This document shows, one piece after another, positions 1,021 through 60,293 of a stretch of DNA of 64,000 nt. Source of the DNA: Eledone cirrhosa. Taxonomy: Eukaryota. The position numbers were made by a program, and so were the translations under genes. The stretch is from NCBI GenBank assembly GCA_964016885.1, contig OZ024742.1, forward strand, positions 193,254,001 through 193,318,000. The letters run 5' to 3'. The notes under the pieces were generated by a model. That model was not told the origin of the DNA. It did no database searches and saw nothing but the letters and a program-made list of their open reading frames with translations. The first letter of the stretch is position 1, and every line of letters starts with the position of its first letter.

Positions 1021-1207
1021 GGCGGTGGATTGGCAGTATGGGTAGAGGGTCGGACGCCATGCTTTCTAGCATAGTTACGTCCCTTTAAGTCTGAGTTCAA
1101 ATCCCGCCGAGGTTAACTTTGCCTTTCATCCTTACGGGGTCGATAAAATAAAGTACCAGTAATGTACTGGAAAATTGCTGGGCTTGTGCCTAAAGTAGAA
1201 ACAATTA
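1021..1207 (+). mobile_element. tRNA-derived SINE (octopus-type), full length
   Basis: A-box-like TGGCAGTATGG and B-box-like GAGTTCAAATCC, followed by the body GGTTAACTTTGCCTTTCATCCTTACGGGGTCGATAAAATAAAGTACCAGT; about 15 near-identical copies in the window. Confidence 0.9.
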
Positions 1208-1540
1208 TATTAGAAAAGAATTTTAACAACTAATTAATCGTAAATGCACGTACCATTGAATATATTCCCCCAAATTTACGTTATTTGAGTTTTATTCATC
1301 CTCTTGTTAATTTCTTCTCTCTCTCTCGTAATATTTTTTATTTTTCTCTCTCTCCTTTTTCTCTCTTTCGTCCTCCAGTGTCATTTAAATAAACGGTTGT
1401 TTCTCAATTATTTACATATTCATTTGCATATTCACACATAAGTTTGAATAATCCCTAATATATTTCCACTATCCAGTGAATTTCCAACCGATAGGGTATG
1501 ATCTTCATGGGTATGTCTCTATTTATAAAACAAACTTTGT

Positions 1541-1599
1541 ATTTTATCTGATGAAAGCGCATGTTATATTGGTTGCCCTTGAAATATATATAATAAAAT
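1541..1599 (+). ncRNA. Type I hammerhead ribozyme (minimal, palindromic stem III)
   Basis: ATTTTAT-CTGATGA-AAGCGCA..TGCCCTT-GAAA-TATATATA-ATAAAAT: 7-bp stem I, canonical core, AATAAA directly downstream. Confidence 0.8.
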
Positions 1600-1719
1600 A
1601 AATATGGTTTTATAAATATAGTTTCCATTTATTTAATATCATTGTATATATATATATATATATATATACTACAAGGATAAGGAACACTGATTCAGTGTTG
1701 CATCATAACATATTTGATA

Positions 1720-1795
1720 ACATATTACATATATTTCATTATAGATCAGCTCGAGGCATGAACTGACTCTGTAATTTAAAGGTCGTCAGATATAC
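1720..1795 (-). ncRNA. Degenerate hammerhead-like motif (family also at ~4908-4983, 35215-35270, 60350-60420)
   Basis: Minus strand GTATAT-CTGACGA-...hairpin...-GAAA-TATATGT-A-ATATGT. Seven extra unpaired nt lie between core and stem II. Confidence 0.4.
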
Positions 1796-1969
1796 TTAGT
1801 ATATGAATTTGTTTCCGATTCTGAGTGTTCAAATCTTCAGCTATTAGCTATCTACAGAACATGTTAACATCATGTTATTCTAGGCCTGTTCATTGGTTCA
1901 ATTATCTCATCATCATCATCATTATACTCTCGGGGTGGTGGCTGTCTGTATATGTATATATATATATAT

Positions 1970-2196
1970 ATTAAAATAACAGCTTAAAGTTTAAGCAAAG
2001 AATCGCTGCTTTCACCCTTAACGGGATCTTCTGAAACTCAGAAGATCCCGTTAAGGGTGAAAGCAGCGATTCTTTGCTTAAACTTTAATCTGTTATTTTA
2101 ATAAATATTTGCTCTACGGTTCTTATATATTTGATATATATTTATCCTTATCGAGCCCTCTTTGGATTTTAGTCTTCAAATTTATTATTATTACTA
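1970..2196. mobile_element. Family A fold-back element in (TA)n
   Basis: Near-perfect ~64-bp inverted arms (1970-2033 / 2039-2102) plus a unique tail. Same family at 5480, 8790, 12424, 46767 and 53610. Confidence 0.85.
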
Positions 2197-2204
2197 TATA
2201 AATA

Positions 2205-4282
2205 TATAATGCACGAGTCAATACAATTAATAAAGGTTTATATCATGTAAGAGTTATATTATAGCTGAAACAAGCATATTTCATGTAGAATGTAAAAGCA
2301 CGTTACAAGTGTTAGAAATGTTTAACATTTTAAAAATTGCGTGCTATATGGTAGAGAGACATGTTGTGATAATATGGATATATGTCATGTAAGACGTAAT
2401 CCAAAGCACGGGATTGAATTAGATAGGTAATTTTCATTCAATAATTTTTAAATTGGAGTAAGCATATAGTGGTATATGTTGGATTCAACTCAAATGTATT
2501 AACCATGGAATTTTCTCAGTTTTAGATGTAATACTTTTGAGATGTGTATAGTTTATAGATATATGTTTGGTAAAGATAAATTCCACTGAATTACTGGCCA
2601 TGTGGTTATAGTAAGTATATTGTAGAATGCATTCCTATCTTTAAATTTTCTATTAAGGAATGTTCGAGTTTGCTTTATGTGTAAGTTTCATTAATAGTTA
2701 GTAGGCGGTTGAGAAGTCATTAAGTTGTTTTAACGTAATGAATTTAAACAGGAAGTGGTGCTGTCTGGGGGAGAGTTATATTATTGTAAATTGATTTTAT
2801 TATCTATTGAAAGTCATTTTTGATTAAGTAGTGTTATAAATTTATATTTATAAATTATAAAATATTATTAATGATTATTAATTAAATATTTATTCAAGTT
2901 ATTTGTTATTCTTATCTATTCAAATTGTGTAGAGAGAGTTAAAAAAATGTTATAACAAGATAGGGATTTATATAATATATATATATATATTCAGATTCTG
3001 CAGAGAGAGTTAACATTTTTTTATAACATCGATAGAGATTTATATAATATACAATGGAGTAATTACCGTTATATACACTGTTTTCACCTATTTAATTAGT
3101 GTTATATATTGTTTTAGAAGTAAGTATTGAAAGGATATCAGGGTGTCTAAATTCTTTATTTATTTGGTTATTGAGAAAAAACTAGAATTGTATGAGGTGA
3201 GAGATCAAAGAAGGGGTTTATTAATATAAAGCTCGACCTTGTGACGATGATATATGTGTAATGATATATGTGTAATGATGCTAATTTGATAACTGAGAAG
3301 GAATATCGGGCAGGATATAGGTTGGTGTGGTTTGTTTAAGTTAAGGTGTAGTTATATAATTACAAACATATAATGGGATAAATTTAAAGGTAATGGTCTA
3401 GAATTATTTCCGACATTGGTTCATATGAGCTACTTGGTTTGAAGTATAAGAAAGAGATTCTGTGGTAATGTGGACACGTGGAAAAAACTCTGATTTCCTA
3501 TTTAGTAGGTTAAGATTAGAATGAATAATAGTTCTAGACTCGAGGATGCAAAGGTTACAAAATGTGTTAGGTGGTTTATATGAAGAGGCCTTAGCTATCA
3601 CTTCCCATTCTAAGGTATATGGTATATTACTTGATTTTAATGAGTGTATGTATGTAGAGAGTGACGTTACATTAATAAGTCTAGGGTTTCTGACCGAATG
3701 GAGGTGCGAATTATATCTGGCCTTAAGTTATTCGCTGTTGAACCTATATAGACTTTCGAAATATGATTAGCAGTGCCAGTACAGGAGTAGATAATGTTTT
3801 AATAGGGCAGCTTTTACTTAATGGGCATGTTCTATTAGGTCTACAAATACAATTATTTTGGTAACTAGTATGTTGGTTAAGGGGGTATGAATTTGAGCGG
3901 TTATTTCTGTTTATACTTCTAGTAGTAAGATTATGTTAAGTATTATCATTACCATTGGTATTATTACTATTACTTGTAGTATCGTCCTGTACTGAGTTAT
4001 TGTTAAGGTTATTTCTATGTTGGACATTATTAACTTGGTGTACTCTGAAGTAATTTTTAATCTTCCTCTTGTTTCTACCAGGTAAATGTTCGGCGATGTT
4101 AGGTGTGGTGGAGTAAGAGATTTTAATAGTATTTTTGTTAAATAGGTTGTGGTATTTATGATTATTTGGGAGGTTTTTGTCTAAAATAGAGAAGAAAGCT
4201 TTAGCTATGTTGGTTGAGACATTTAAGTTGAACGGAGGATTAAAAAATGTGTTACTTCTTCTATTCTTCTTATGATTATTAT
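2205..4282 (-). mobile_element. 5'-truncated Penelope-like element (RT-EN linker + GIY-YIG + 3' region)
   Basis: ORF 3936-4292 FFNPPF...FFSILDK...HKYHNLFNKNTIKISYS. Downstream CPL..C...IIYSC...VYIGST and YKPPNTFCNLCILE match the element at 13383-16030. Confidence 0.85.
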
Positions 4283-4734
4283 CTGAGTTCAAATCCCGCC
4301 GAGGTTAACTTTGCCTTTTATCCTTACGGGGTCGATAAAATAAAGTACCAGTAATTCACTGGGATATTTGCTGGCGTTGTGCCTAAAGTAGAAACAATTA
4401 TATTAGAAAAGAATTTTAACAACTAATTAATCGTAAATGCACGTACCATTGAATATATTACCCCAAATTTATGTTATTTGAGTTTTATTCATCCTCTTGT
4501 TAATTTCTTCTCTCTCTCTCGTAATATTTTTTTATTTTTCTCTCTCTCTTTTTTCTCTCTTTCGTCCTCCAATGTCATTTAAATAAACGGTTGTTTCTCA
4601 ATTATTTACATATTCATTTGCATATTCACACATAAGTTTGAATAATCCCTAATATATTTCCACTATCCAGTGAATTTCCAACCGATAGGGTATGATCTTC
4701 ATGGGTATGTCTATATTTATTAAACAAACTTTGT

Positions 4735-4793
4735 ATTTTATCTGATGAAAGCGCATGTTATCTTGGTTGCCCTTGAAATATATATAATAAAAT
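4735..4793 (+). ncRNA. Type I hammerhead ribozyme (duplicate of 1541-1599)
   Basis: Same stems and CTGATGA/GAAA core as 1541-1599. Confidence 0.8.
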
Positions 4794-5155
4794 AAATATG
4801 GTTTTATAAATATAGTTTCCATTTATTTAATATCATTGTATATATATATATATATACTACAAGGATAAGGAACACTGATTCAGTGTTGCATCATAACATA
4901 TTTGATAACATATTACATATATTTCATTATGGATCAGCTCGAGGCATGATCTGACTCTGTAATTTAAAGGTCGTCAGATATACTTAGCATATGAATTTGT
5001 TTCCGATTCTGAGTGTTCAAATCTTCAGCTATTAGCTATCTACAGAACATGTTAACATCATGTTATTCTAGGCCCGTTCATTGGTTCAATTATCTCATCA
5101 TCATCATCATCATTATACGCTCGGGGTGGTGGCTGTCTGTATATATATATATATA

Positions 5156-5434
5156 AATGAAGTAATTCCATCGGAAAAGTCCAGGAAAAAAGAGTGCTCT
5201 ATGTAGGCAACAGAGCTTAATTATTATTATTATGTAATAAACAACATAAGGCAATTCTTCCATTTACCAGTGGTTTCTTAAAAGCAAAAGGTTTTGCTTT
5301 CAATCATCAGAACGGAAAAAGCTGGTTTGCAATAAACAAACCAGCTTTTTCCGTTCTGATGATTGAAAGCAAGACCTTTTGCTTTTAAGAAACCACTGGT
5401 AAATGGAATAATTGCCTTATGTTGTTTATTACAT

Positions 5435-5440
<6 letters not shown>
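5156..5440. mobile_element. Fold-back hammerhead element inserted in (TA)n
   Basis: ~105-bp inverted arms centred near 5332; absent from the equivalent TA tract (~1949-1970) of the other duplication unit. Confidence 0.85.
5349..5408 (+). ncRNA. Type I hammerhead ribozyme (mirror copy at 5258-5317, minus)
   Basis: TTCCGTT-CTGATGA-TTGAAAGCAA..TTGCTTTTAA-GAAA-CCACTGGT-A-AATGGAA; GUA cleavage triplet. Confidence 0.85.
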
Positions 5441-5867
<427 letters not shown>

Positions 5868-5939
5868 GATAGATATATATATGTATATAGTAATAATAAT
5901 ATTTATATTTATATATGTTTAATATACAATTATAAATAT

Positions 5940-8194
5940 GGAGGGTAGTACTAACTACTAGCCAGCTACCTGTAGGATAACAGACTCAAGGTAGATACAT
6001 GACTGTTGTCGGTGTCACAGACATCATATAGAAAATCGGGAGTTAAAAATGAATGTAATGCTTCAGAAAATACAATTACAAGGAGCATTGGGGAAAAGTG
6101 AAAAATAGGCATATTATGTTTAAGGTAATACATGTGCAAAAGGTGCAAGCAGGAAAATAGGCACAAGCAAAAAAAAGATGTAAGATAGGATAGGTAGAAG
6201 ATATCATAGCATTGGAAATCAGGTAATCTTAAGGGTATATAATGCAAGAGTCAATACAATTAATAAAGGTATATATCATGTAAGAGTTATATTATAGCTG
6301 AAACAAGCATATTTCATGTAGAATGTAAAAGCATGTTACAAGTGTTAGAAATGTTTAACATTTTAAAAATTGCGTGCTATATGGTAGAGAGACATGTTGT
6401 GATAATATGGATATATGTCATGTAAGACGTAATCCAAAGCATGGGATTGAATTAGATAGGTAATTTTCATTCAATAATTTTTAAATTGGAGTAGGCATAT
6501 AGTGAAATATGTTGGATTCAACTAAAATGTATTAACCATGGAATTTTCTTAGTTTTAGATGTAATACTTTTGAGATGTGTATAGTTTATAGATATATGTT
6601 TGTTAAAGATAAATTCCACTGAATTACTGCCCATGTGGTTATAGTAAGTATATTATAGAATGCATTCCTATCTTTAAATTTTCTATTAAGGAATGTTCGA
6701 GTTTGCTTTATGTGTAAGTTTCATTAATAGTTATTAGGCGGTTGAGAAGTCATTAAGTTGTTTTAACGTAATGAATTTAAACAGGAAGTGGTGCTCTCTG
6801 GGGGAGAGTTATATTATTGTAAATTGATTTTATTATCTATTGAAAGTCATTTTTGATTAAGTAGTGTTATAAATTTATATTTATAAATTATAAAATATTA
6901 TAAATGATTATTAATTAAATATTTATTCAAGATATTTGTTATTCTTATCTATTCAAATTGTGTAGAGAGAGTTAAAAAAATGTTATAACAAGATAGGGAT
7001 TTATATTATATATATATATATATTCAGATTGTGCAGAGAGAGTTAACATTTTTTTATAACATCGAGAGAGATTCATATAATATACAATGGAGTAATTACC
7101 GTTATATACACTGTTTTCACCTATTTAATTAGTGTTATATATTGTTTTAGAAGTAAGTATTGAAAGGATATCAGGGTGTCTAAATTCTTTATTTATTTGG
7201 TTATTGAGAAAAAACTAGAATTGTATGAGGTGAGAGATCAAAGAAGGGGTTTATTAATATAAAGCTCGACCTTGTGACGATGATATATGTGTAATGAAAT
7301 ATGTGTAATGATGCTAATTTGATAACTGAGAAGGAATATCGGGCAGGATATAGGTTGGTGTGGTTTGTTTAATTTAAGGTGTAGTTATATAATTACAAAC
7401 ATATAATGGGATAAATTTAATAGGTTAAGATTAGAATGAATAATAGTTCTAGACACAAGGATGCAAAGGTTACAAAATGTGTTAGGTGGTTTATATGAAG
7501 GGGCCTTAGCTATCACTTCCCATTCTAAGGTATATGGTATATTACTTGATTTTAATGAGTGTATGTATGTAGAGAGTGACGTTACATTAATAAGTCTAGG
7601 GTTTCTGACCGAATGGAGGTGCGAATTATATCTGGCCTTAAGTTATTCGCTGTTGAACCTATATAGACTTTCGAAATATAATTAGCAGTGCCAGTACAGG
7701 AGTAGATAATGTTTTAATAGGGCAGCTCTTACTTAATGGGCATGTTCTATTAGGTCTACAAATACAATTATTTTGGTAACTAGTATATTGGTTAAGGGGG
7801 TATGAATTTGAGCGGTTATTTCTGTTTATACTTCTAGTAGTAAGATTATGTTAAGTATTATCATTACCATTGGTATTATTACTATTACTTGTAGTATCGT
7901 CCTGTACTGAGTTATTGTTAAGGTTATTTCTATGTTGGACATTATTAACTTGGTGTACTCTGAAGTAATTTTTAATCTTCCTCTTGTTTCTGTCAGGTAA
8001 AAGTTCTGCGATGTTAGGTGTGGTGGAGTAAGAGATGTTAATAGTATTTTTGTTAAATAGGTTGTGGTATTTATGAATATTTGGGAGGTTTTTGTCTAAA
8101 ATAGAGAAGAAAGCTTTAGCTATGTTGGTTGAGACATTTAAGTTGAACGGAGGATTAAAAAATGTGTTACTTCTATTCTTCTTATGATTATTAT
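5940..8194 (-). mobile_element. 5'-truncated Penelope-like element, second duplicate copy
   Basis: ORF 7851-8204 is nearly identical to 3936-4292; ~120-bp deletion near 7419 relative to the first copy. Confidence 0.85.
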
Positions 8195-8567: not shown

Positions 8568-8785
<218 letters not shown>

Positions 8786-8789
8786 TATT

Positions 8790-8985
8790 GAAATAACAGA
8801 TTAAATTTTAAGCAAAGGATCGCTGCTTTCAGAAGAACCCGTTAAATGATGAAAGCACCGATTCTCTGCTTAAATTTTAATCTGTTATTTTAATAAATAT
8901 TTGCTCTATGGTTTTTATGCATATTTGTTACAGTCCTTATCGACCCCTCTTCGGATTTAGTCTTCATATTTATTATTATTACAAT
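8790..8985. mobile_element. Family A fold-back element (diverged)
   Basis: AAATAACAGATTAAA...TTTAATCTGTTATTT arms and the same tail as 1970-2196. Confidence 0.8.
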
Positions 8986-9035
8986 ATATATATATATTAC
9001 TATATATATATATTACTATATATATTATTACTATA

Positions 9036-10412: not shown

Positions 10413-10451
10413 CCCTCTTTGGATTTTAGTCTTCAAATTTATTATTATTAC

Positions 10452-10745
<294 letters not shown>

Positions 10746-12412: not shown

Positions 12413-12571
12413 TTATATATAAATAGTAATAATAATAATAAATTTGAAAACTAAAATCCAAAGAGGGATCGATTAACATAAATATATATCAAATATATAA
12501 GAACCCTAGAGCAAATATTTAATCTGTTATTTTAATAAATAAATATATGTATATATATATATATAATCTCT

Positions 12572-13134: not shown

Positions 13135-13192
13135 ACTGCCTGATGAGGTCATAGCCATTCAATGGCTATCATCGAAATATATATATAGCAGT
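13135..13192 (+). ncRNA. Type I hammerhead ribozyme in upstream pseudo-LTR
   Basis: ACTGC-CTGATGA-GGTCATAGCCATT.C.AATGGCTATCATC-GAAA-TATATATATA-GCAGT. The downstream copy (17117-17165) has lost stem III and the 3' strand of stem I. Confidence 0.85.
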
Positions 13193-13382
13193 AAATAAAG
13201 GATTATGAGTTTATGCAATTGACTTATGTTTCGTCACTATTATAACTCCGGAACTTATATCTTCGTTGAGTGCTCCCTATCCGCATACTGAAGTACAGGA
13301 TTTTGCCAACACTTACTTTCTTGCTTACACCCATGTTCCACACCCTGTTGAGCGCTTCATACAGTAGCGGACCCCAGCCAAT

Positions 13383-16030
13383 ATGAATAAACTCACCACT
13401 CTGGCATCACTGAAGGACATCCCATTACCGGGTAAAAGAGAATACACCAGGAATCTCACTAAGAGTACTGACTCCCTAATACGCAGGATGAGGTGGAGGG
13501 CTTACCACTTTGATAGAGGAAACCCCAATATTAATAACCAAAAAACCATGGAGTGCCTCTTCAGATCAAAAAGACCCCCCCCCCCCCCACAACAGACTAT
13601 TGGAAGAGTTCGAGAACTAAATGATTGGCATCATTTCCAACATCAAATTTTCCGACCAACCATACCGGGGTGGAAAGTACCTTAGGCGACTGGAAAATGG
13701 AATTACCGAGCTTAAGGAATCTACATAAATACTCGTCCATACCGACAAATCCAACAACCTTTACAGCATGGACGTTCAAATTTAACGTGAGCTAATCCTT
13801 AGGGAATTGAGAAAAAGCTACAAAAAACACCCGAAGCTACCCTGGAGGATATCCACATCAAGGCTTATGAGATCGTATCTGGTCTTGGTATAGATGATAG
13901 GATAGCCCCATACCAACCACGGGAGCCGAGGATTACCATTAAGGACCACAAACCAAACTTCGAGTCTAACCTGCCGGTCAGACTGATAGCCCCCTCCCGA
14001 TCAGACATGGGGTTATAAGCAAAAGCATTTTTGATAGGATCCTGCCCACACTTAAGAGTAAAATAAGTTTACAACTCTGGTCCTGCACCAGCCAGGTGCT
14101 GGACTGGTCTACATTTTTACCTGACAAACATAGGACTAGCTTCATACAACTAGACATCAACAATTACTACTCCTCTATCTCGCCCATAGTCCTGAACAAG
14201 GGACTCATATTCGCGATGAATAGGACAGACCTAACACGCGACGAGGTCCGAATCATACACGCCGCCAGAAAGACCCTGATCCGATTCGGTGGGGACATAT
14301 TGACCCGGATCGACTGGCCAAATAATGTTGACATTACAATGGGCTCCAGTGACTCCGCGCAGCTAACGGACTTGGTTGGGATATACATACTCTACGAGAT
14401 CAGGAGAGAAATACCCAACCTGGGTGGCGGGCTGTACCGAGACGACGCACTCTTCACCGTAGTGGACCACAACACCACAATGGTCGAAAATATGAAGAGG
14501 AGAATTAGGCACTTCTTTAGCAAGGTAGGACTTGAAGTAGAGATGGAACCCAATAGAAAAGTAGTGAATTTCCTGGACACCACCCTCAACTTAAACACTA
14601 AGTTACACCACCTATATCATAAACCCAATGAGAAGCTTGTGTATATTAACGCTGGATCCAATCACCCTACATCTATAGTTAAGGCCGTAGTTAAGAGTGT
14701 CTCTGACAGGATTTCTAACTTGTCGGCCAATAAAGAGATCTTCCATTGTAACGCTGATTACTATAACTCAGCGCTAGCCAAGGCGTCCCACAGCCATAGG
14801 ATCAGCTACAACCCTAAGGGACATGGTCGAGATGACCCAAGGGTACCCATGACCATACCCTCAGGGGCATGAGTCGCCCACCTAATACCTCGGTGACCAG
14901 TAGTAACACTCACAAACCTCTATCCGTCAACACCTCCGGTAGAATGTCCCGCATAAACCACCAGTCTAATACCTACAACGCTGAAGACCACTGTGCTGTG
15001 GAGCATAGGCACCCCGGCCCCGGCCCCAGCACCCGGCGAACCCTAATTGAGCAGGGAGGCCGCACCTCGCAGGTTTATAGCGTCACGGTGGGCCCATATA
15101 ACCCTCATGACAGTGACCGCTCCGCACACCTGAGTGACACCAACTGAGCTCGACCTGAGCTGTGCACAACCACGCGATGGACCACGGCGGACACCCAACA
15201 ACCCCGCAAGTATAGGACCAGGAAGGTCACATGGTATAACCCTCCGTCCTCGGTGGGTCTACCTACCAGCCTGGCTAGAACATTCTTTAGATTATTGGAT
15301 AAATATTTCCCTAGGGCCCACAAGTACCATAACATATTCAACAGGCACACGGTGAAGCTTTCCTACTTAACCACACGCTCCGTAGCCCAGAACATACCTG
15401 ACATAAATAGGAATAGGCTCACTGCCTCTAATACCACCGTAAACCCCAGAACCAGCCAACAGAACCAGCACGCGGGACGCACCGACTAGCACACCGACTA
15501 GCACACCGACAGGCTCAACTAGCACACCGGAACCCAACGACCCTGTCCTTATTGCGGAGGCTACCCAGCCAACCCCGAGTGATGGTAACCACGCGGTACA
15601 TATGGTGAGGATTAAGAAGTCGTGTAATTGCAGAGACCCATCACTATGCCACCTTAGTAATGAATGCATGACGAAAAACGTAGTCTACAGGTGCAAGGTC
15701 ACAACCCCTAACTCGGAGCACCACTACATGGGATCCACAGCGACGAACTTTAAAGTTCGCCATTCCTTTAACAGAATAGATAAGAGGAAATGTACGGCCC
15801 TTTCTGAATTGATCTGGAAGCTCAAACTTGAAAAGACCCCGCACTCGCTGGTCTGGTCCGTGGTTAGAAAGGTTCCCCCATACAGAGGCGGGTCTGGTAT
15901 TTGCAACCCCTGTCTTAGTGAGACACTCGAGATACTTCATGGCGGAGCCAAGCTATTCAACAGCAGGGCCGACTTATTCGGTGCCTGCAGACACCTAAGG
16001 ACTGCAACTTACCTCAAGCTATATGGATAA
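13383..16030 (+). pseudogene. Penelope-like RT + GIY-YIG endonuclease ORF, frameshifted
   Basis: SLKDIPLP...IRRMRWRA N-terminus; RT motifs QLDINNYYSSI, ITMGSSDSAQLTDLVG, GLYRDD, VNFLDTTL, SNHP; WYNPP; CNCRDPSLC linker; VVYRC..YMGST; CNPCLSE. Split across several frames. Confidence 0.92.
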
Positions 16031-16199
16031 ACCCCGGTTAAGGCGGCCCACAACGCCACCCCCTCTATAGGTCCCCTACACCCCGTACCAATGACCAATG
16101 GACAACAACAAACACCCATAGTTTGTGGTTCCTATGGTGGATGGTCCACCGGATCCTCTACTGGTTAGGAGTCATCAAACCACGTTTTATTGAACCCGA

Positions 16200-16200
16200 T

Positions 16201-16239
<39 letters not shown>

Positions 16240-16350
16240 ATTATATGTATATATATATGTATATATATATATATATTTTATATATATATATGTATATATT
16301 TTATATATATGTATGTATATTTATATATATATATTATATATATATATATA

Positions 16351-16430
<80 letters not shown>

Positions 16431-16580
16431 TATATATATGTATATATATATATATATTTTATATATATATATGTATATATTTTATATATATGTATGTATA
16501 TTTTATATATATATATATATATTATATATATATATATTTTATATATACTTGTGCGTACATATATATATATATATACACAC
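16200..16580. repeat. Degenerate (TA)n microsatellite
   Basis: Directly visible. Confidence 0.95.
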
Positions 16581-17689
16581 CTGTATGGATTTGTGTGTGT
16601 AGATGTGTGTGTGTCTGAGGGGGTAGGTGTGCGTGTATGTACTTGTCTACCAACATAAGCCCTTTATTTCTAAATTTTCTATACTATCTATGTATTTGAC
16701 GCTAACCATTATTTTAAGTATTACCACCACACATTAATTCCTCAATTTGTATGTGTGGATGTGTGTGCGTGTCTGTGGCGGTGGTGGGAGTGTACGGGCA
16801 AGCCAACTTACATAAGTCTCTTTATTTGTAAATGTTCTACTCTAACCATAATTGAATATATATGTGACCAGGAATGCTTTTTTTGAAAATCAGTCATATG
16901 GAACTATTGTCATCTTACCTGGCGGTTTCAACTTTACAACACCACCTGCCTCTTTGAGGTCAAATACCCACCCTACTAACATCTACAAACTGACCAATGA
17001 GAATGAAGTCTATTCCTGCTGGCAACATTAAATTATTCCTAACAAGCTCATATGTCCCAAGGCTCTGATACCATCAACACTATAAATACAGAGCTGGCAT
17101 ATCTAAGAACAGAGTAACAGCCTGATGAGGTCATAACCATTCAATGGCTATCATCGAAATATAAATAAAGGATTATGAGTTCATGCAATTGACTTGTTTC
17201 GTCACTATATATATATATATATATTTAATACATTAACAGAGAAAGCCTTAAGCTATACTCTGATTGGCTTCCATCTCACTCAACAAACATTAGGATATAC
17301 CTTAGTATAATCCCAATTTTACGTTTGGGGTGCTAACTATATGTATTTTGCGGAAAGCCAGTTGTATTATTTTATATGAGACATAATTAAAAAATATCTC
17401 TCTTTCCAAACAATTGTTTCATTATAAGTTTTCTACAAGTTGGGAAAATGTGTCTAGGTTATGTAGAAACCTGCACACATTCCGTAGGAACATATGCAGG
17501 TGGGCACTTATAAATCATCAGTGGATGCCCGGTAAACATCGATATAAGGATTTATATATATACACAAAGGGTGGAAGAACTTCTAAAAGTCAACGGCCAT
17601 CCAAAAGTGTGTAAATTTGTATATGCACATGTACATATGTATGTATATGGGTGCATGTGTATGTATATGCGCGGGGGCATAGAAATAGT

Positions 17690-35364: not shown

Positions 35365-35716
35365 GTGAGGTTTTTTTATAAAATGAAAAGTAACCGAGGT
35401 GTCCTACACGAGTGAAAGTATAAAGAAAACAAGATGAAATCGAAAATGCAATTGGAGTCTTATTTTTTAAAAAATATATATATTTATTTGGTTCCATTAC
35501 CGGTTTCGCTGTTCTTCTGCTTTTCAAAAGTAGAGTTGAGATGGAGGGTCTGTGGTTTTCCTCACAGATGTGAGAACAATCAGAGACTCTCCATCTCAAC
35601 TCTACTTTTGAAAAGCAGAAGAACTGCAAAACCGGTAACGGAACCAAATAAATATATATATATTTTTTTAAATAACTCTCCAGTTACATTTTCAATTTCA
35701 TCTCGTTTTCTTTATA
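35358..35716. mobile_element. Family E fold-back element (UUGAAAA hammerhead)
   Basis: Inverted arms centred ~35570, TA-flanked; family also at 59660-59880 and 59932-60300. Confidence 0.85.
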
Positions 35717-35825: not shown

Positions 35826-36637
35826 TTCAAACCCAAACTTGACACTAAGTGATCCCCTGGAGTCTAATGCACTTTTCCTTCCTATTCTGTAACGCGTTCA
35901 TGCACTCCTGGAAGGATTCTTCCGCGATCCCCCGCAGTTCCGTTGTGACGGCCTTTTTGATATCGTCCACGTCTTCAAAACGGGTCCTCTCCGGGTCGTA
36001 CTTGAAGATCCATGACTCATCAGCGGTGATGATGACTGTCCATAGCAAATCTGGTTCTGTTTCAAGGCACTCGAGGATTTCCTGGCACAATTGCATGCCT
36101 CGACCCTTCTGGTTATCGTTCAGCACTTTTGGGACCGTCTTCGCGCAGACTTTCCGCATGCTCAAATCTTCAGTGAGAATCTTCCAGACGCTTCCCGATT
36201 CATGCCCAGCTCATTTGCCATCAGTCGAACAGTCAGCCGACGATCGCTACGCGCCATCTGCCTGACGCGCTCAACGTTGACCTCAGTCCTGGTTGTTGAG
36301 GGCCTTCCGCTCCTGAGGTCATCTTGCACCACTCGAAAACAAGTGACATCTCCATACACTTGCTGTAACAATCCCAGTGCTTCTGACGGAGTTTTCCCCA
36401 ACCGTACCAGGAACTTCAAGTATGTTTGTTGCTCTGTGCTCAATGCTTGACGACCTGAAACAGAGGATATGTATATCAAATTATGAACAAAAAAGTTTGA
36501 TCGCCGCAGAGAGCTAATATTACAGTTACATACTCCAGGGGGTTTACTTTGAAGGAGAAAGCTCTTAGTGTGAAGTTTGGGTTTGAAATACATATTTTGT
36601 GTCATTAGTCCTGGAACTTTTCTAACACACCACGTAT
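35823..36637 (-). mobile_element. Internally deleted mariner transposon
   Basis: EQQTYLKFLVRLGKT...RSGRPST...DRRLTVR...MRKVCAKTVPKVL...ITADESWIFKYDPE; subterminal inverted repeats 35823-35849 / 36565-36591. Confidence 0.9.
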
Positions 36638-40919: not shown

Positions 40920-41515
<596 letters not shown>

Positions 41516-46751: not shown

Positions 46752-47144
46752 CTATATATATATATATTAAAATAACAGATTAAAGTTTAGGCAAAGAATC
46801 GCTGCTTTCACACTTAACGGGATCTTCTGTTTCAGAAGATTCCGTTAAGGGTGAAAGCAGCGATTCTTTGCTTAAACTTTAATCTGTTATTTTAATAAAT
46901 AATTGCTCTAGTGTTCTCATATATTTGATATATATTTATTCTCATCGAGCCCTCTTAGGATTTTAGTCTTCACATTTATCATTATTACTATTATTATTAG
47001 TATATAGTTACGTCCCTTTACGCTCTGAGTTCAAATCCCGTCGAGCTTAACTTTGCCTTTCATCCTTACGGGGTTGATAAAATAAAGTACCAGTAATCTA
47101 CTGGATAATTGGTGGCCGTGTGCCAAAAGTAGAAACAATTATTA

Positions 47145-53605: not shown

Positions 53606-53609
53606 TATA

Positions 53610-54712
53610 TAGTAATAATAATAAATTTGAAGACTAAAATCCAATAAGGATAAATATATATCAAATATATAAGAACCGTAGAGCAAATATTTATTAAAAT
53701 AACAGATTAAAGTTTAAGCAAAGAATCGCTCCTTTCACCCTTAACGGGATCTTCTGAAACTAACAAAGTCAATCTGTAAACGCAGAACTGGATATTTCAA
53801 AAAAACGTTGCAACCGGAGGAAGACAGGAAGACGATACTTTGGTTCGTGGTAACGTTCGCTGGCTAAGAACGGGAAAAAAACGAATATAATACGTCATTA
53901 ATAGGAGCGGTGAAAAACAATTACGCGCAAAGACAGAACCACGTTTATGGTATAATAGAGGTCGTAGACTAATGTTCTCTTTGGTGGTGCATAGAGACGT
54001 TATCTGGCGATGAACGAAAAAAACGAAGATAATACGTCATATGTGGAGCGTGGAGAACACAAAGACAAAACCACGTAAATGGTATAGAGAGAAGTCGTAG
54101 ACTAAATTCTAACTAGGAGACCGAATGAATCTCCGCTACGGAGTTAAGAACAAAGTAAATAAATACAATACAGAAGTAATAGAAATAAATAAATACATAC
54201 ACGCAAACAGAAACGTACATACACAAGCATACGCAAAAACTTACCATAGGTAAACAAAACCACGCACATATAAATATGTGTGTGTGTGTAAGCGTGTATA
54301 CAAATAAATAAATAATTATATAAACGTATATAAATAACTAAATACGTATATAACAAGCGCACGCACATACCTACATGTAAATACACGAATGTTCGGAGGC
54401 GTAGTACACATATACACACGCCCTACACACGTATGAACCTGCATACTCACACAGACGCAAAACTCCCGTATACACATAGCCGAACCATATGTACCAGAAT
54501 ATACAAAAAAATTATACGCCATAACAATCAAATATACGTACGAGAAGGTATACGTACCTTCACAAAACATACGGATAATATATACTTACCTATGCAAATA
54601 AGTAAAGGTATAAAGAAAACATATACTTAGCTCCCACATCGAGACGTAAAATATCCACGTATAGATCGTACTTCTTCGCTTAAACTTTAATCTGTTATTT
54701 TAATAAATATAT
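53610..54712 (-). mobile_element. Longest family A element (~1.1 kb, non-coding) with short inverted end
   Basis: Family A tail at 53610-53760 continues into a unique body with an internal ~95-bp direct repeat (53875/54017); inverted tail piece at 54678-54710. Confidence 0.7.
53702..53777 (-). ncRNA. Extended type I hammerhead fold with non-canonical CAGAAGA core (family A)
   Basis: ACAGATTGA-CTTTGTT-AGTTT-CAGAAGA-TCCC.GTTAA.GGGT-GAAA-G(C/G)A..TGCT-T-AAACT-TTAATCTGT; bulged 14-bp stem I. Confidence 0.65.
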
Positions 54713-55142: not shown

Positions 55143-56335
<1,193 letters not shown>

Positions 56336-59936: not shown

Positions 59937-60293
59937 AAAGTGATGTAATAGAAAATGCAACTGAAGTCTTATTTTTTAAAAAATTATATATATATTTATT
60001 TGGTTCCTTTACCGGTTTCGCAGTTCTTCTGCTTTTCAAAAGGTGAGTTGAGATGGTGGTTTTTCTCACATCTGTGAGAAAAACCACAGATGTGAGAAAA
60101 ACCACAGACCCTCCATCTCAACTCACCTTTTGAAAAGCAGAAGAACTGCGAAACCGGTAAGGGAACCAAATAAATATATATATTTAAAAAAAAAATAAGA
60201 CTCTAGTTGCATTTTCGATTTCATCTCTTTTTCTTTATACTTTCACTCGTGTAGGACACGTTAGTTATTTTTCATTTTATAAAAAAACCTCAC

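What the first reader, a model, noticed from the sequence alone, without database searches (positions are those of the whole stretch)
53702..53777. Most abundant family carries a hammerhead fold with a CAGAAGA (U4A) core and CUU site
Seen: the long copy shows a bulged 14-bp stem I, stem II CCC-GTTAA-GGG, GAAA, and stem III AGCA/TGCT (intact in the other copies). CAGAAGA is present in every copy that spans it (2039, 5548, 8830, 46833, 53750), so it is a family trait rather than decay. In four fold-backs the turn lies just 5' of this core. Established: U4 is highly conserved as part of the uridine turn. Inference: a naturally variant ribozyme supported by bulge-loop tertiary contacts, or a catalytically dead scaffold kept for RT recognition.
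Basis: partly seen in the sequence, partly recalled or inferred. Interest (0 to 1): 0.7.

Follow-up and report, generated by a model that had tools for sequence, protein, structure and literature searches.

The report
Retrotransposon hammerhead with fixed A4 core
This is the hammerhead-shaped RNA motif at the end of a very abundant, recently active Penelope-like jumping gene; nearly all copies carry A where related elements have the core U, yet the rest of the fold is kept, so it is likely a slowed-down self-cutting RNA (cutting untested).

Summary
Confirmed, on the minus strand (core 53756-53750). The motif is the terminal-repeat hammerhead of an autonomous Hydra-clade Penelope-like element (3.25-kb unit, 709-aa RT/GIY-YIG frame; core 197-200 nt before the ATG). 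A4 is fixed: 10,307 of 10,371 exact genome matches, 96 of 100 listed older-subfamily copies. Relatives have U4 (45 of 47 distinct metagenome motifs, none A4; 26 of 26 published rows), so A4 is derived. Between old and young subfamilies 0 of 38 unforced stem/core positions changed, against 27 of 87 flank positions, while N7, the bulge and loops changed and loop II kept its G...A pattern. There is no covariation beyond shuffles, no RNA run and no 5' end at the cut site. The long copy's broken stem III is a private mutation; two of the four fold-backs are one duplicated insertion; the turn hotspot at the core is real genome-wide (46 of 50) and fits micro-palindromes. Best reading: a single-molecule hammerhead braked by U4A (0.5); dead scaffold 0.3. 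This scan already reported the same family twice elsewhere in this genome (e1-10304421, e1-10319020). New variant of a known kind.

The parts
53702..53777 (-). Type I hammerhead-like fold of the pLTR (stem I 9+5 bp with 7-nt bulge, stem II 3 bp, stem III 4 bp in most copies)
53750..53756 (-). Core C3-A4-G5-A6-A7-G8-A9; A4 at 53755 replaces U4
53737..53749 (-). U10.1.U11.1 mismatch, stem II CCC/GGG and loop GUUAA (fits the RNnA loop-2 pattern)
53716..53736 (-). GAAA, stem III with 9-nt non-palindromic loop, CUU; predicted cut between 53716 and 53715; private C15.3G at 53731 breaks one stem III pair in this copy
53609..53701 (-). 3' end of the element: short terminus (about 53687) and tail to the long terminus (about 53609), both followed by (TA)n in most copies; in tandem copies it runs on into the ATG
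53860..54589 (-). GT-AG intron of about 730 nt in the pLTR; removed exactly in spliced retrocopies elsewhere in the genome; acceptor about 102 nt 5' of the core
53609..54672 (-). Long arm of a 5'-truncated insertion of the Hydra-clade PLE (89% to a full unit; no coding part)
54672..54710 (+). Short inverted arm of the same insertion, ending in (TA)n
1964..2200 (.). Fold-back insertion turning at the core (cores 2033- and 2039+)
5473..5710 (.). Segmental duplicate of the 1964-2200 insertion (cores 5542- and 5548+)
8782..8989 (.). Older fold-back (82-85%), core 8830+; arms joined through a TTTCA/TGAAA micro-homology
46760..46991 (.). Fold-back turning at the core (cores 46829- and 46833+)
12427..12541 (.). 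Fold-back of the same family that starts 3' of the cut site and holds no core
10413..10458 (+). Tail-only fragment of the family

Best explanation
The stretch is the terminal-repeat hammerhead motif of an abundant, recently active Hydra-clade Penelope-like retrotransposon whose lineage fixed A at core position 4 while keeping the fold, and it likely still cuts itself, but only slowly. Shown: the element, the place of the motif (197-200 nt before the ATG in tandem copies, about 0.9 kb after the stop), fixation of A4, the U4 state of relatives, and lack of change in stems and core across subfamilies. Shown also: relatives have a 2-4-bp near-palindromic stem III with a loop of 0-3 nt, the form reported to need a dimer, whereas this lineage has a closed 4-bp stem III with a 9-nt loop, a 14-bp bulged stem I and a G...A loop II. 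Inferred: that remodelled form would fold as a single molecule with a loop-bulge contact and would cut fast with U4; A4 removes the imino hydrogen bond of the uridine turn and would act as a brake, so most transcripts stay uncut and serve as templates, with residual or RT-protein-assisted cutting. Inferred: reverse transcription starts at two sites about 28 and 117 nt 3' of the cut site, passes the uncut motif, and often switches template at micro-palindromes around the core, which gives the short fold-backs.
For: Element: RT plus C-terminal GIY-YIG, DKT, CxCx5C, CxxC, CxH, (TA)n flanks; 9 of 28 full-length hits with an ATG keep a 708-710-aa frame counted as 709-710, three of them with A4 motifs at both ends. 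Fixation: 10,307 of 10,371 A, 28 T, 18 C, 18 G; older subfamilies 85 of 91 and 96 of the first 100 of 233 with positions 4, 5, 7, 8, 9 left free, where G5 was 93, G8 86, A9 96 but N7 split 63 A/28 T/7 G/2 C (counted by hand). Polarity: 45 of 47 distinct motifs beside 37-45%-identical relatives have U4, none A4 (54 of 78 loci had a motif); 26 of 26 published Hydra rows have CUGA; the A4 rows are one side of a 100-support branch and a canonical-core family of this window is among their nearer kin. Constraint: 0 of 38 unforced stem/core positions differ between old (18 copies) and young (26 copies) majority sequences, against 27 of 87 upstream (p 2e-5), 13 of 49 near flanks (p 4e-4), 5 of 12 bulge and loop II (p 4e-4). 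Loop II keeps first G and last A in three subfamilies, the RNnA pattern of PMC2632901. The 15.2-16.2 pair is G-C here and C-G in all 47 relatives. Attenuation: mutations in CUGA gave low activity in a full scan (PMC9901934); a natural U4C lowers activity yet supports a viroid, and U.U at 10.1-11.1 is tolerated (PMC3088659); a PLE hammerhead was protein-assisted and dispensable for insertion in vitro (PMC11167929). U4 copies arise sporadically on several subfamily backgrounds and did not found a subfamily.
Against: No activity data. No covariation beyond shuffles in 29 copies (score 0.086 against 0.087). None of 28 full-length copies has its 5' end at the cut site, and 17 of 28 run through an intact upstream motif; read depth steps up at the core, not at the cut site. 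The hammerhead is about 3 kcal/mol above the predicted minimum fold, A4 adds a competing 5-bp helix, and proximal stem I has pair probability near 0. The constraint test is one lineage comparison, several core letters were forced by the patterns, and the region 3' of the motif is also conserved in reads, so RT-binding or other roles could explain part of it. The brake idea (A4 coupled to the change of architecture) has no direct support: no intermediate with the new stems and U4, or the old stems and A4, was found.
Confidence: 0.5

Rival explanations
1. Catalytically dead scaffold: U4A abolished cutting, and the three-way junction is kept because the RT/EN protein binds it or it positions the two reverse-transcription starts.
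For: CUGA mutants show low activity with no rescue by a second change except the 3-8 swap. Hammerhead mutants did not affect insertion of a Poseidon element in vitro; Naiads thrive without hammerheads. No 5' ends at the cut site in 28 full-length copies. No covariation.
Against: G5, G8 and A9 stayed the majority letters with the positions left free while N7 changed, and loop II kept G...A; a mere secondary-structure scaffold need not keep these. The absence of cut-site ends was also reported for an active PLE hammerhead, so it does not discriminate.
Confidence: 0.3
2. Efficient natural variant: the long bulged stem I and the G...A loop II form a tertiary contact that makes up for A4, so the ribozyme cuts at a near-normal rate.
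For: Peripheral remodelling is confined to this lineage; tertiary contacts are proposed to offset natural core changes (PMC3088659); A4 held over about 30% flank divergence without reversion.
Against: The scan of a tertiary-stabilised hammerhead still gave low activity in this motif. Bulge letters and length vary between subfamilies with no matching change in the loop. More than 10,000 copies were copied through an uncut site, although this holds for canonical families too.
Confidence: 0.12
3. The constraint is not on a ribozyme fold but on overlapping DNA or splicing signals (promoter, 3' splice site made by A4), with the hammerhead shape a leftover.
For: A4 creates a pyrimidine-tract CAG; PLE pLTRs carry promoters and introns.
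Against: Of 30 loci with a non-G after the donor, 25 join directly to the acceptor 100-106 nt 5' of the core, 2 join to it from a second donor, 3 are unspliced, and 0 use the core CAG. The conserved letters are the paired and core ones, the changed letters the unpaired ones.
Confidence: 0.05
4. Editing switch: A4 is converted to inosine in part of the transcripts, which restores an imino donor at the turn and switches cutting on.
For: The uridine turn needs an imino donor (PMC4105743); A4 has a 3' G and lies in a partly paired region. Heavy A-to-I editing in cephalopods is recalled, and the host group is only my guess from genome size and repeat make-up.
Against: G4 is not enriched among genomic copies (18 G, 18 C, 28 T of 10,371). 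No RNA data. No evidence that inosine works at position 4.
Confidence: 0.03

Closest known systems
Hydra-clade Penelope-like elements and their pLTR hammerheads (Craig et al. 2021, PMC8557442; section 11, Files S1 and S2 seen)
   Same: RT plus C-terminal GIY-YIG, DKT, CxCx5C linker, C-terminal CxxC and CxH, (TA)n insertions, inverted truncated arms, type I hammerhead in the pLTR; U.U beside stem II (14 of 26 published rows, 25 of 47 metagenome motifs) and U at position 17 (10 of 26 rows) are common in the clade.
   Different: All 26 published rows have U4 and a short near-palindromic stem III with C15.2-G16.2; this family has A4, G15.2-C16.2, a closed stem III with a 9-nt loop and a 14-bp bulged stem I. 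Unit 3.25 kb with a 731-nt intron, longer than the listed families. Hydra-1_oBim is a different family; neither core 10-11-mer of this one occurs in the supplement text.
Minimal dimeric hammerheads of metazoan PLEs (Cervera and De la Pena 2014, PMC4209133; abstract, results, discussion seen)
   Same: pLTR location, many single truncated copies, pairs on opposite strands, nearby intron 3' end, tolerated core change (U3-A8).
   Different: Not minimal and not palindromic in stem III; the change is at U4 and has no partner change.
Poseidon element of Anolis (Frangieh et al. 2024, PMC11167929; main text seen)
   Same: Two 3' termini with a tail between them, AT-rich targets, uncut RNA as template, no ends at the cut site.
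   Different: Canonical core, frame starts inside the ribozyme, tail 30-40 bp against about 89 here; other clade.
Natural hammerhead core variants (Perreault et al. 2011, PMC3088659; section 8 and passages seen, figures not)
   Same: Single core changes with reduced activity, including U4C in a viroid, and U10.1.U11.1.
   Different: U4A is not named in the text (0 hits); none is fixed in a family of more than 10,000 copies.

Membership tests
Hammerhead ribozyme, type I | Three stems around the core, 5' and 3' ends in stem I | tested here: met
   90.4% of 492 cells paired, against 20-54% for slid partners; not the minimum-energy fold
Hammerhead ribozyme, type I | C3, G5, A6, G8, A9, G12, A13, A14, A15.1-U16.1 | tested here: met
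   C3, A6 and GAAA were fixed by the patterns, G5, G8, A9 were free
Hammerhead ribozyme, type I | U4 of the uridine turn | tested here: not met
   A in 10,307 of 10,371; so not filed as a proven hammerhead ribozyme, only as a homologue that probably works like one
Hammerhead ribozyme, type I | NUH cleavage triplet | tested here: met
   CUU; U17 in 10 of 26 published Hydra rows
Hammerhead ribozyme, type I | Covariation in the stems | tested here: not met
   no excess over shuffles in 29 copies, 17 pairs; 4 pairs of distal stem I left out for a register shift; one pair is flipped against the clade
Hammerhead ribozyme, type I | Loop II to stem I tertiary contact (RNnA loop, U partner) | tested here: inconclusive
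   G...A kept in three subfamilies, U-rich bulge; the contact itself is not shown
Hammerhead ribozyme, type I | Match to an Rfam hammerhead model | tested here: inconclusive
   no hit at E 10, but a natural U4 copy has none either
Hammerhead ribozyme, type I | Site-specific self-cleavage | not testable with these tools
   needs an assay; no RNA holder listed
Hydra-clade PLE | Single frame, RT then C-terminal GIY-YIG | tested here: met
   709-aa frames; DDG and IVY...YIG motifs read; Pfam scan of two partial frames gave 0 families
Hydra-clade PLE | DKT in place of DKG | tested here: met
   all 10 rows; one copy (L244) has lost it
Hydra-clade PLE | CxCx5C linker; C-terminal CxxC and CxH | tested here: met
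Hydra-clade PLE | Absence of the CCHH motif | not tested
   no alignment to canonical PLE endonucleases was made
Hydra-clade PLE | (TA)n insertion preference and hammerhead in the pLTR | tested here: met
   motif 197-200 nt before the ATG, as in relatives (about 180-220 nt)
Dimeric minimal PLE hammerhead | Very short palindromic stem III | tested here: not met
   4 bp with a 9-nt non-palindromic loop
Non-LTR retrozyme | Short non-coding tandem units each with a hammerhead | tested here: not met
   copies are truncated ends of a coding 3.25-kb element

The most novel reading that the evidence does not exclude
A Penelope lineage rebuilt its dimer-dependent hammerhead into a single-molecule, tertiary-stabilised one whose uridine turn is made with adenosine, and it cuts at a useful rate, alone or when switched on by the element's own protein (or by editing of A4): a natural active U4A hammerhead that widens the core consensus and gives a regulated ribozyme in more than 10,000 copies.
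Probability: 0.15. Interest if true: 0.8.

Novelty: new variant of a known kind. Interest (0 to 1): 0.5.

Why it matters
What hammerheads do in Penelope-like elements is open: they are widespread, slow, and dispensable in the one in vitro system. Here a family with intact frames and more than 10,000 copies has fixed a change in a nearly invariant core residue and still keeps the fold, with natural U4 copies and canonical sister families in the same genome as controls. One cleavage experiment decides between a slowed, a dead and a rescued ribozyme, and each result is informative: dead would show that a PLE can spread on the fold alone, active would widen the hammerhead consensus. It also warns that descriptors that fix CUGA miss such families, and that fold-back junctions create false canonical cores.

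Tried and rejected
Rfam: no hammerhead among the 150 of 174 rows shown for the window or for the motif; uninformative, since a U4 copy fails too. A canonical sister subfamily: 1,116 matches with CUGANGA and the same stem III looked like one, but of the first 30 loci 24 are fold-back junctions, 5 are junctions with flanking DNA and 1 has the native upstream. U4A as a micro-inversion of the TTC-A-GAA palindrome: dropped, because the older subfamily has A4 with U7, where the palindrome is absent. C15.3G as a spreading subfamily (9-10 such copies among the BLAST hits): an artefact of the query; 0 of 30 position-sampled copies, rarest variant. U4 copies as a clade: they sit on different backgrounds (24 read; 26 of the 28 places were fetched). 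The A4-made CAG as splice acceptor: 0 of 30. G5A sub-lineage (3 of 13): only 4 of 100. A second, canonical hammerhead in the element: none on either strand of three full copies. Neptune clade (first guess): replaced by Hydra on DKT and CxCx5C. Search with relative P0002 for a nearer canonical family returned only this family. No RNA holder listed. Run X21 laid 1 read and says nothing. Papers: Lunse et al. 2017 on PLE hammerhead variants and a review of hammerhead mutational data are not held, so I saw nothing of them; the first may already list a position-4 variant. Figures 5, S6 and S7 of PMC3088659 were not seen and may hold a U4A case. Searches that found no report of this core: 0 papers; only Craig et al..

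Full report
1. Observation. The described fold is present on the minus strand of 53702-53777: stem I of 9+5 bp with a 7-nt bulge, core CAGAAGA at 53756-53750, U.U beside a 3-bp stem II with loop GUUAA, GAAA, stem III and CUU. All 8 arms in 5 window loci that span the core read CAGAAGA. An A4-hammerhead descriptor gave 0 hits in 20 shuffled windows. Copies 2039 and 5548 are one insertion inside a segmental duplication. The long copy's stem III is broken by a private C-to-G (G is 11 of the first 100 of 317 non-C matches; 0 of 30 position-sampled copies). The hammerhead is not the predicted minimum fold (-12.3 against -15.1 kcal/mol), and Rfam finds neither this copy nor a natural U4 copy.

2. 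The element. The window lies in a 3.0-Gb genome. [quoted passage not shown] Tandem copies give a unit of about 3.25 kb; the core lies 197-200 nt before the ATG and about 0.9 kb after the stop. Of 28 full-length hits in which an ATG was found (30 loci), 9 keep a 709-710-aa frame and one more 708 aa; three of the nine carry A4 motifs at both ends. DKT, CxCx5C, CxxC, CxH and (TA)n flanks match the Hydra clade of Craig et al. 2021 (section 11; supplement legends). A GT-AG intron of 731 nt lies in the pLTR (window 54589-53860); of 30 loci with a non-G after the donor, 25 are joined directly to the acceptor 100-106 nt 5' of the core, 2 from a second donor, 3 are unspliced, none uses the CAG made by A4. 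Copies end at two places about 28 and 117 nt 3' of the predicted cut, each followed by (TA)n, like the two reverse-transcription starts and tail of the Anolis element (PMC11167929, parts 1-2 of 4). The window's long copy is a 1.06-kb truncated arm with a 39-nt inverted arm.

3. A4 is fixed and derived. Exact 33-mers: 10,371, of which 64 are not A (28 T, 18 C, 18 G). Older subfamilies: 85 of 91 A; with positions 4, 5, 7, 8, 9 free, the first 100 of 233 gave A4 96, G5 93, G8 86, A9 96, and N7 63 A, 28 T, 7 G, 2 C (hand count). Contigs from six other organism labels carry the family; no other letter is listed at position 4, and for four labels (X6, X7, X12, X13) a contig bridges the site, at low depth; the table was cut to its 40 best rows. 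Relatives at 37-45% identity in metagenomes: 54 of 78 loci have a motif, at the same place; of 47 distinct motifs 45 have C3-U4, one C3-C4, one U3-U4, none A4. All 26 published Hydra rows have CUGA (File S2). In a FastTree tree of 48 rows (every second metagenome locus left out) the four A4 rows are one side of a 100-support branch, and a canonical-core family of this window (13140) is among their nearer kin. The 1,116 canonical-looking hits are mostly junction products (24 of the first 30 loci). True U4 copies are scattered over subfamily backgrounds; two insertions have U4 in all their arms (L111, L112), so a U4 template was copied at least twice without founding a subfamily.

4. The fold is still constrained. 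Majority sequences of 18 old copies (of 30; those with native upstream) and 26 young copies (of 30) differ at 0 of 38 stem and core positions not forced by the pattern, against 27 of 87 upstream, 13 of 49 in the near flanks and 5 of 12 in bulge and loop II (Fisher p 2e-5, 4e-4, 4e-4). An old frame fragment is 69% identical to the young protein. Loop II keeps its first G and last A in three subfamilies, the RNnA pattern that makes the tertiary contact in most natural hammerheads (PMC2632901, passages). In RAD reads of the species with the best match, the best-supported variants within the motif lie in the bulge. Against this: no covariation beyond shuffles; the test is a single lineage comparison; the 3' flank is also conserved. 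Relative to the clade, the 15.2-16.2 pair is flipped (C-G in 47 of 47, G-C here), stem III is closed by a 9-nt loop instead of being near-palindromic, and stem I is long and bulged. U.U beside stem II and U17 are clade-typical.

5. Fold-backs. 2,207 fold-backs have an arm-to-arm spacer of 40-100 nt; in the first 50, 46 fall at 48-70, a mean turn from 8 nt before to 3 nt inside the core (uniform expectation 38%, p 1e-15), with modes at 51 (11) and 59 (7). The mode at 51 is a switch inside the near-palindrome TTC-A-GAA; the 8830 copy uses TTTCA/TGAAA. Read depth rises from about 3,000 to 5,400-6,600 across the core and shows no step at the cut site (a RAD library, and divergent upstream parts may fail to lay). 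So the hotspot is real and is explained by template switching, perhaps helped by stalling at the junction (inference); it is not a cleavage footprint. None of 28 full-length copies starts at the cut site (nearest -8, -5, +23, +35 against +41), and 17 run through an intact upstream motif. I had no genome-wide control from a canonical family; in four such window fold-backs the turn lies about 23-180 nt 5' of the core.

6. How it most likely works. Literature seen: CUGA mutants have low activity in a pairwise scan (PMC9901934, passages); U4 contacts the A6-N7 phosphate, a natural U4C is slow but viable, U.U at 10.1-11.1 is tolerated (PMC3088659, section 8 and passages); the uridine turn needs an imino donor (PMC4105743, passages); metazoan PLE hammerheads are slow and dimeric (PMC4209133, parts 1-2 of 4; PMC6765202, passages); a PLE hammerhead was protein-assisted and not needed for insertion. 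I also read part 1 of 5 of 10.64898/2026.07.22.740005 and passages of PMC11014351; neither bears on U4A. My reading: the lineage moved from a dimer-gated to a single-molecule hammerhead, and A4 is the brake that leaves most RNA uncut as template (0.5). Rivals: dead scaffold (0.3), efficient rescued variant (0.12), overlapping signals (0.05), editing switch (0.03). Activity, the tertiary contact and the brake are all inferred.

7. Novelty. The element class and its hammerhead are known; a family-wide U4A was not found in my searches, but Lunse et al. 2017 and the figures of Perreault et al. could not be seen. This scan had already noted the same family in two other windows of this genome with similar readings, and fixed core changes in PLE lineages of another genome (seen after my own analysis, unchecked AI notes; their figure of about 20,000 copies I did not test). 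Verdict: new variant of a known kind, interest 0.5, directly testable.

Noticed in passing
window 13140-17130 (+): A second Hydra-like PLE: frame remnants at 13407-16015 (30-44% to this family) with canonical CUGAUGA cores at 13140 and 17122 and a palindromic (UA)n stem III.
   Followed up: partly
window 35513-35622, 59709, 60025-60144; 57159 and 57523: Two families with the U3-A8 core (UUGAAAA with palindromic ACCGGU; UUGAUAA); the first supplies five of the window's CAGAAGA hits, there as part of stem II.
   Followed up: partly
window 1548, 4742, 5310/5356, 12577, 21649, 24307, 36833/36987: At least five further hammerhead families with canonical cores, several in fold-backs; core-like words also at 41349, 53358, 58037/58774. 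Frame remnants at 1-261, 3488-4247 and 7415-8162 are 38-58% like this family's protein.
   Followed up: no
window 1090-2967 and 4282-7000: Segmental duplication at 96-98% that doubles several insertions.
   Followed up: partly
L111 (G000:C9:23474000-23480200) and L112: Complex insertions in which all three (or both) motifs have U4: natural canonical-core versions of this family, useful as assay controls.
   Followed up: partly
L080-L108 (G000:C1): Fold-back junctions inside TTC-A-GAA write a canonical CUGAAGA on one strand, without the 5' strand of stem I; about a thousand such false canonical cores are likely.
   Followed up: yes
L158-L187: Both spliced (181 matches with a non-G after the donor, 27 of 30 read are spliced) and unspliced retrocopies exist, with a second donor 32 nt and a second acceptor 4 nt away.
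   Followed up: partly
L312:2167 and L314:2399: Marine metagenome motifs with a C4 core (CCGAAGA) and a U3-A8 core.
   Followed up: no
window 53853-54105: [quoted passage not shown]
   Followed up: no
window 36020-36200 (-): Sequence that resembles a mariner-type transposase piece (resemblance recalled, not tested; flanks printed).
   Followed up: no
window 55399-55568: Near-perfect 170-nt hairpin with sub-threshold Rfam microRNA scores, probably a small inverted-repeat element.
   Followed up: no
run X21 against X4: Raw reads labelled organism B laid 1 read while contigs with the same label lay at depth of several hundred; unexplained.
   Followed up: no
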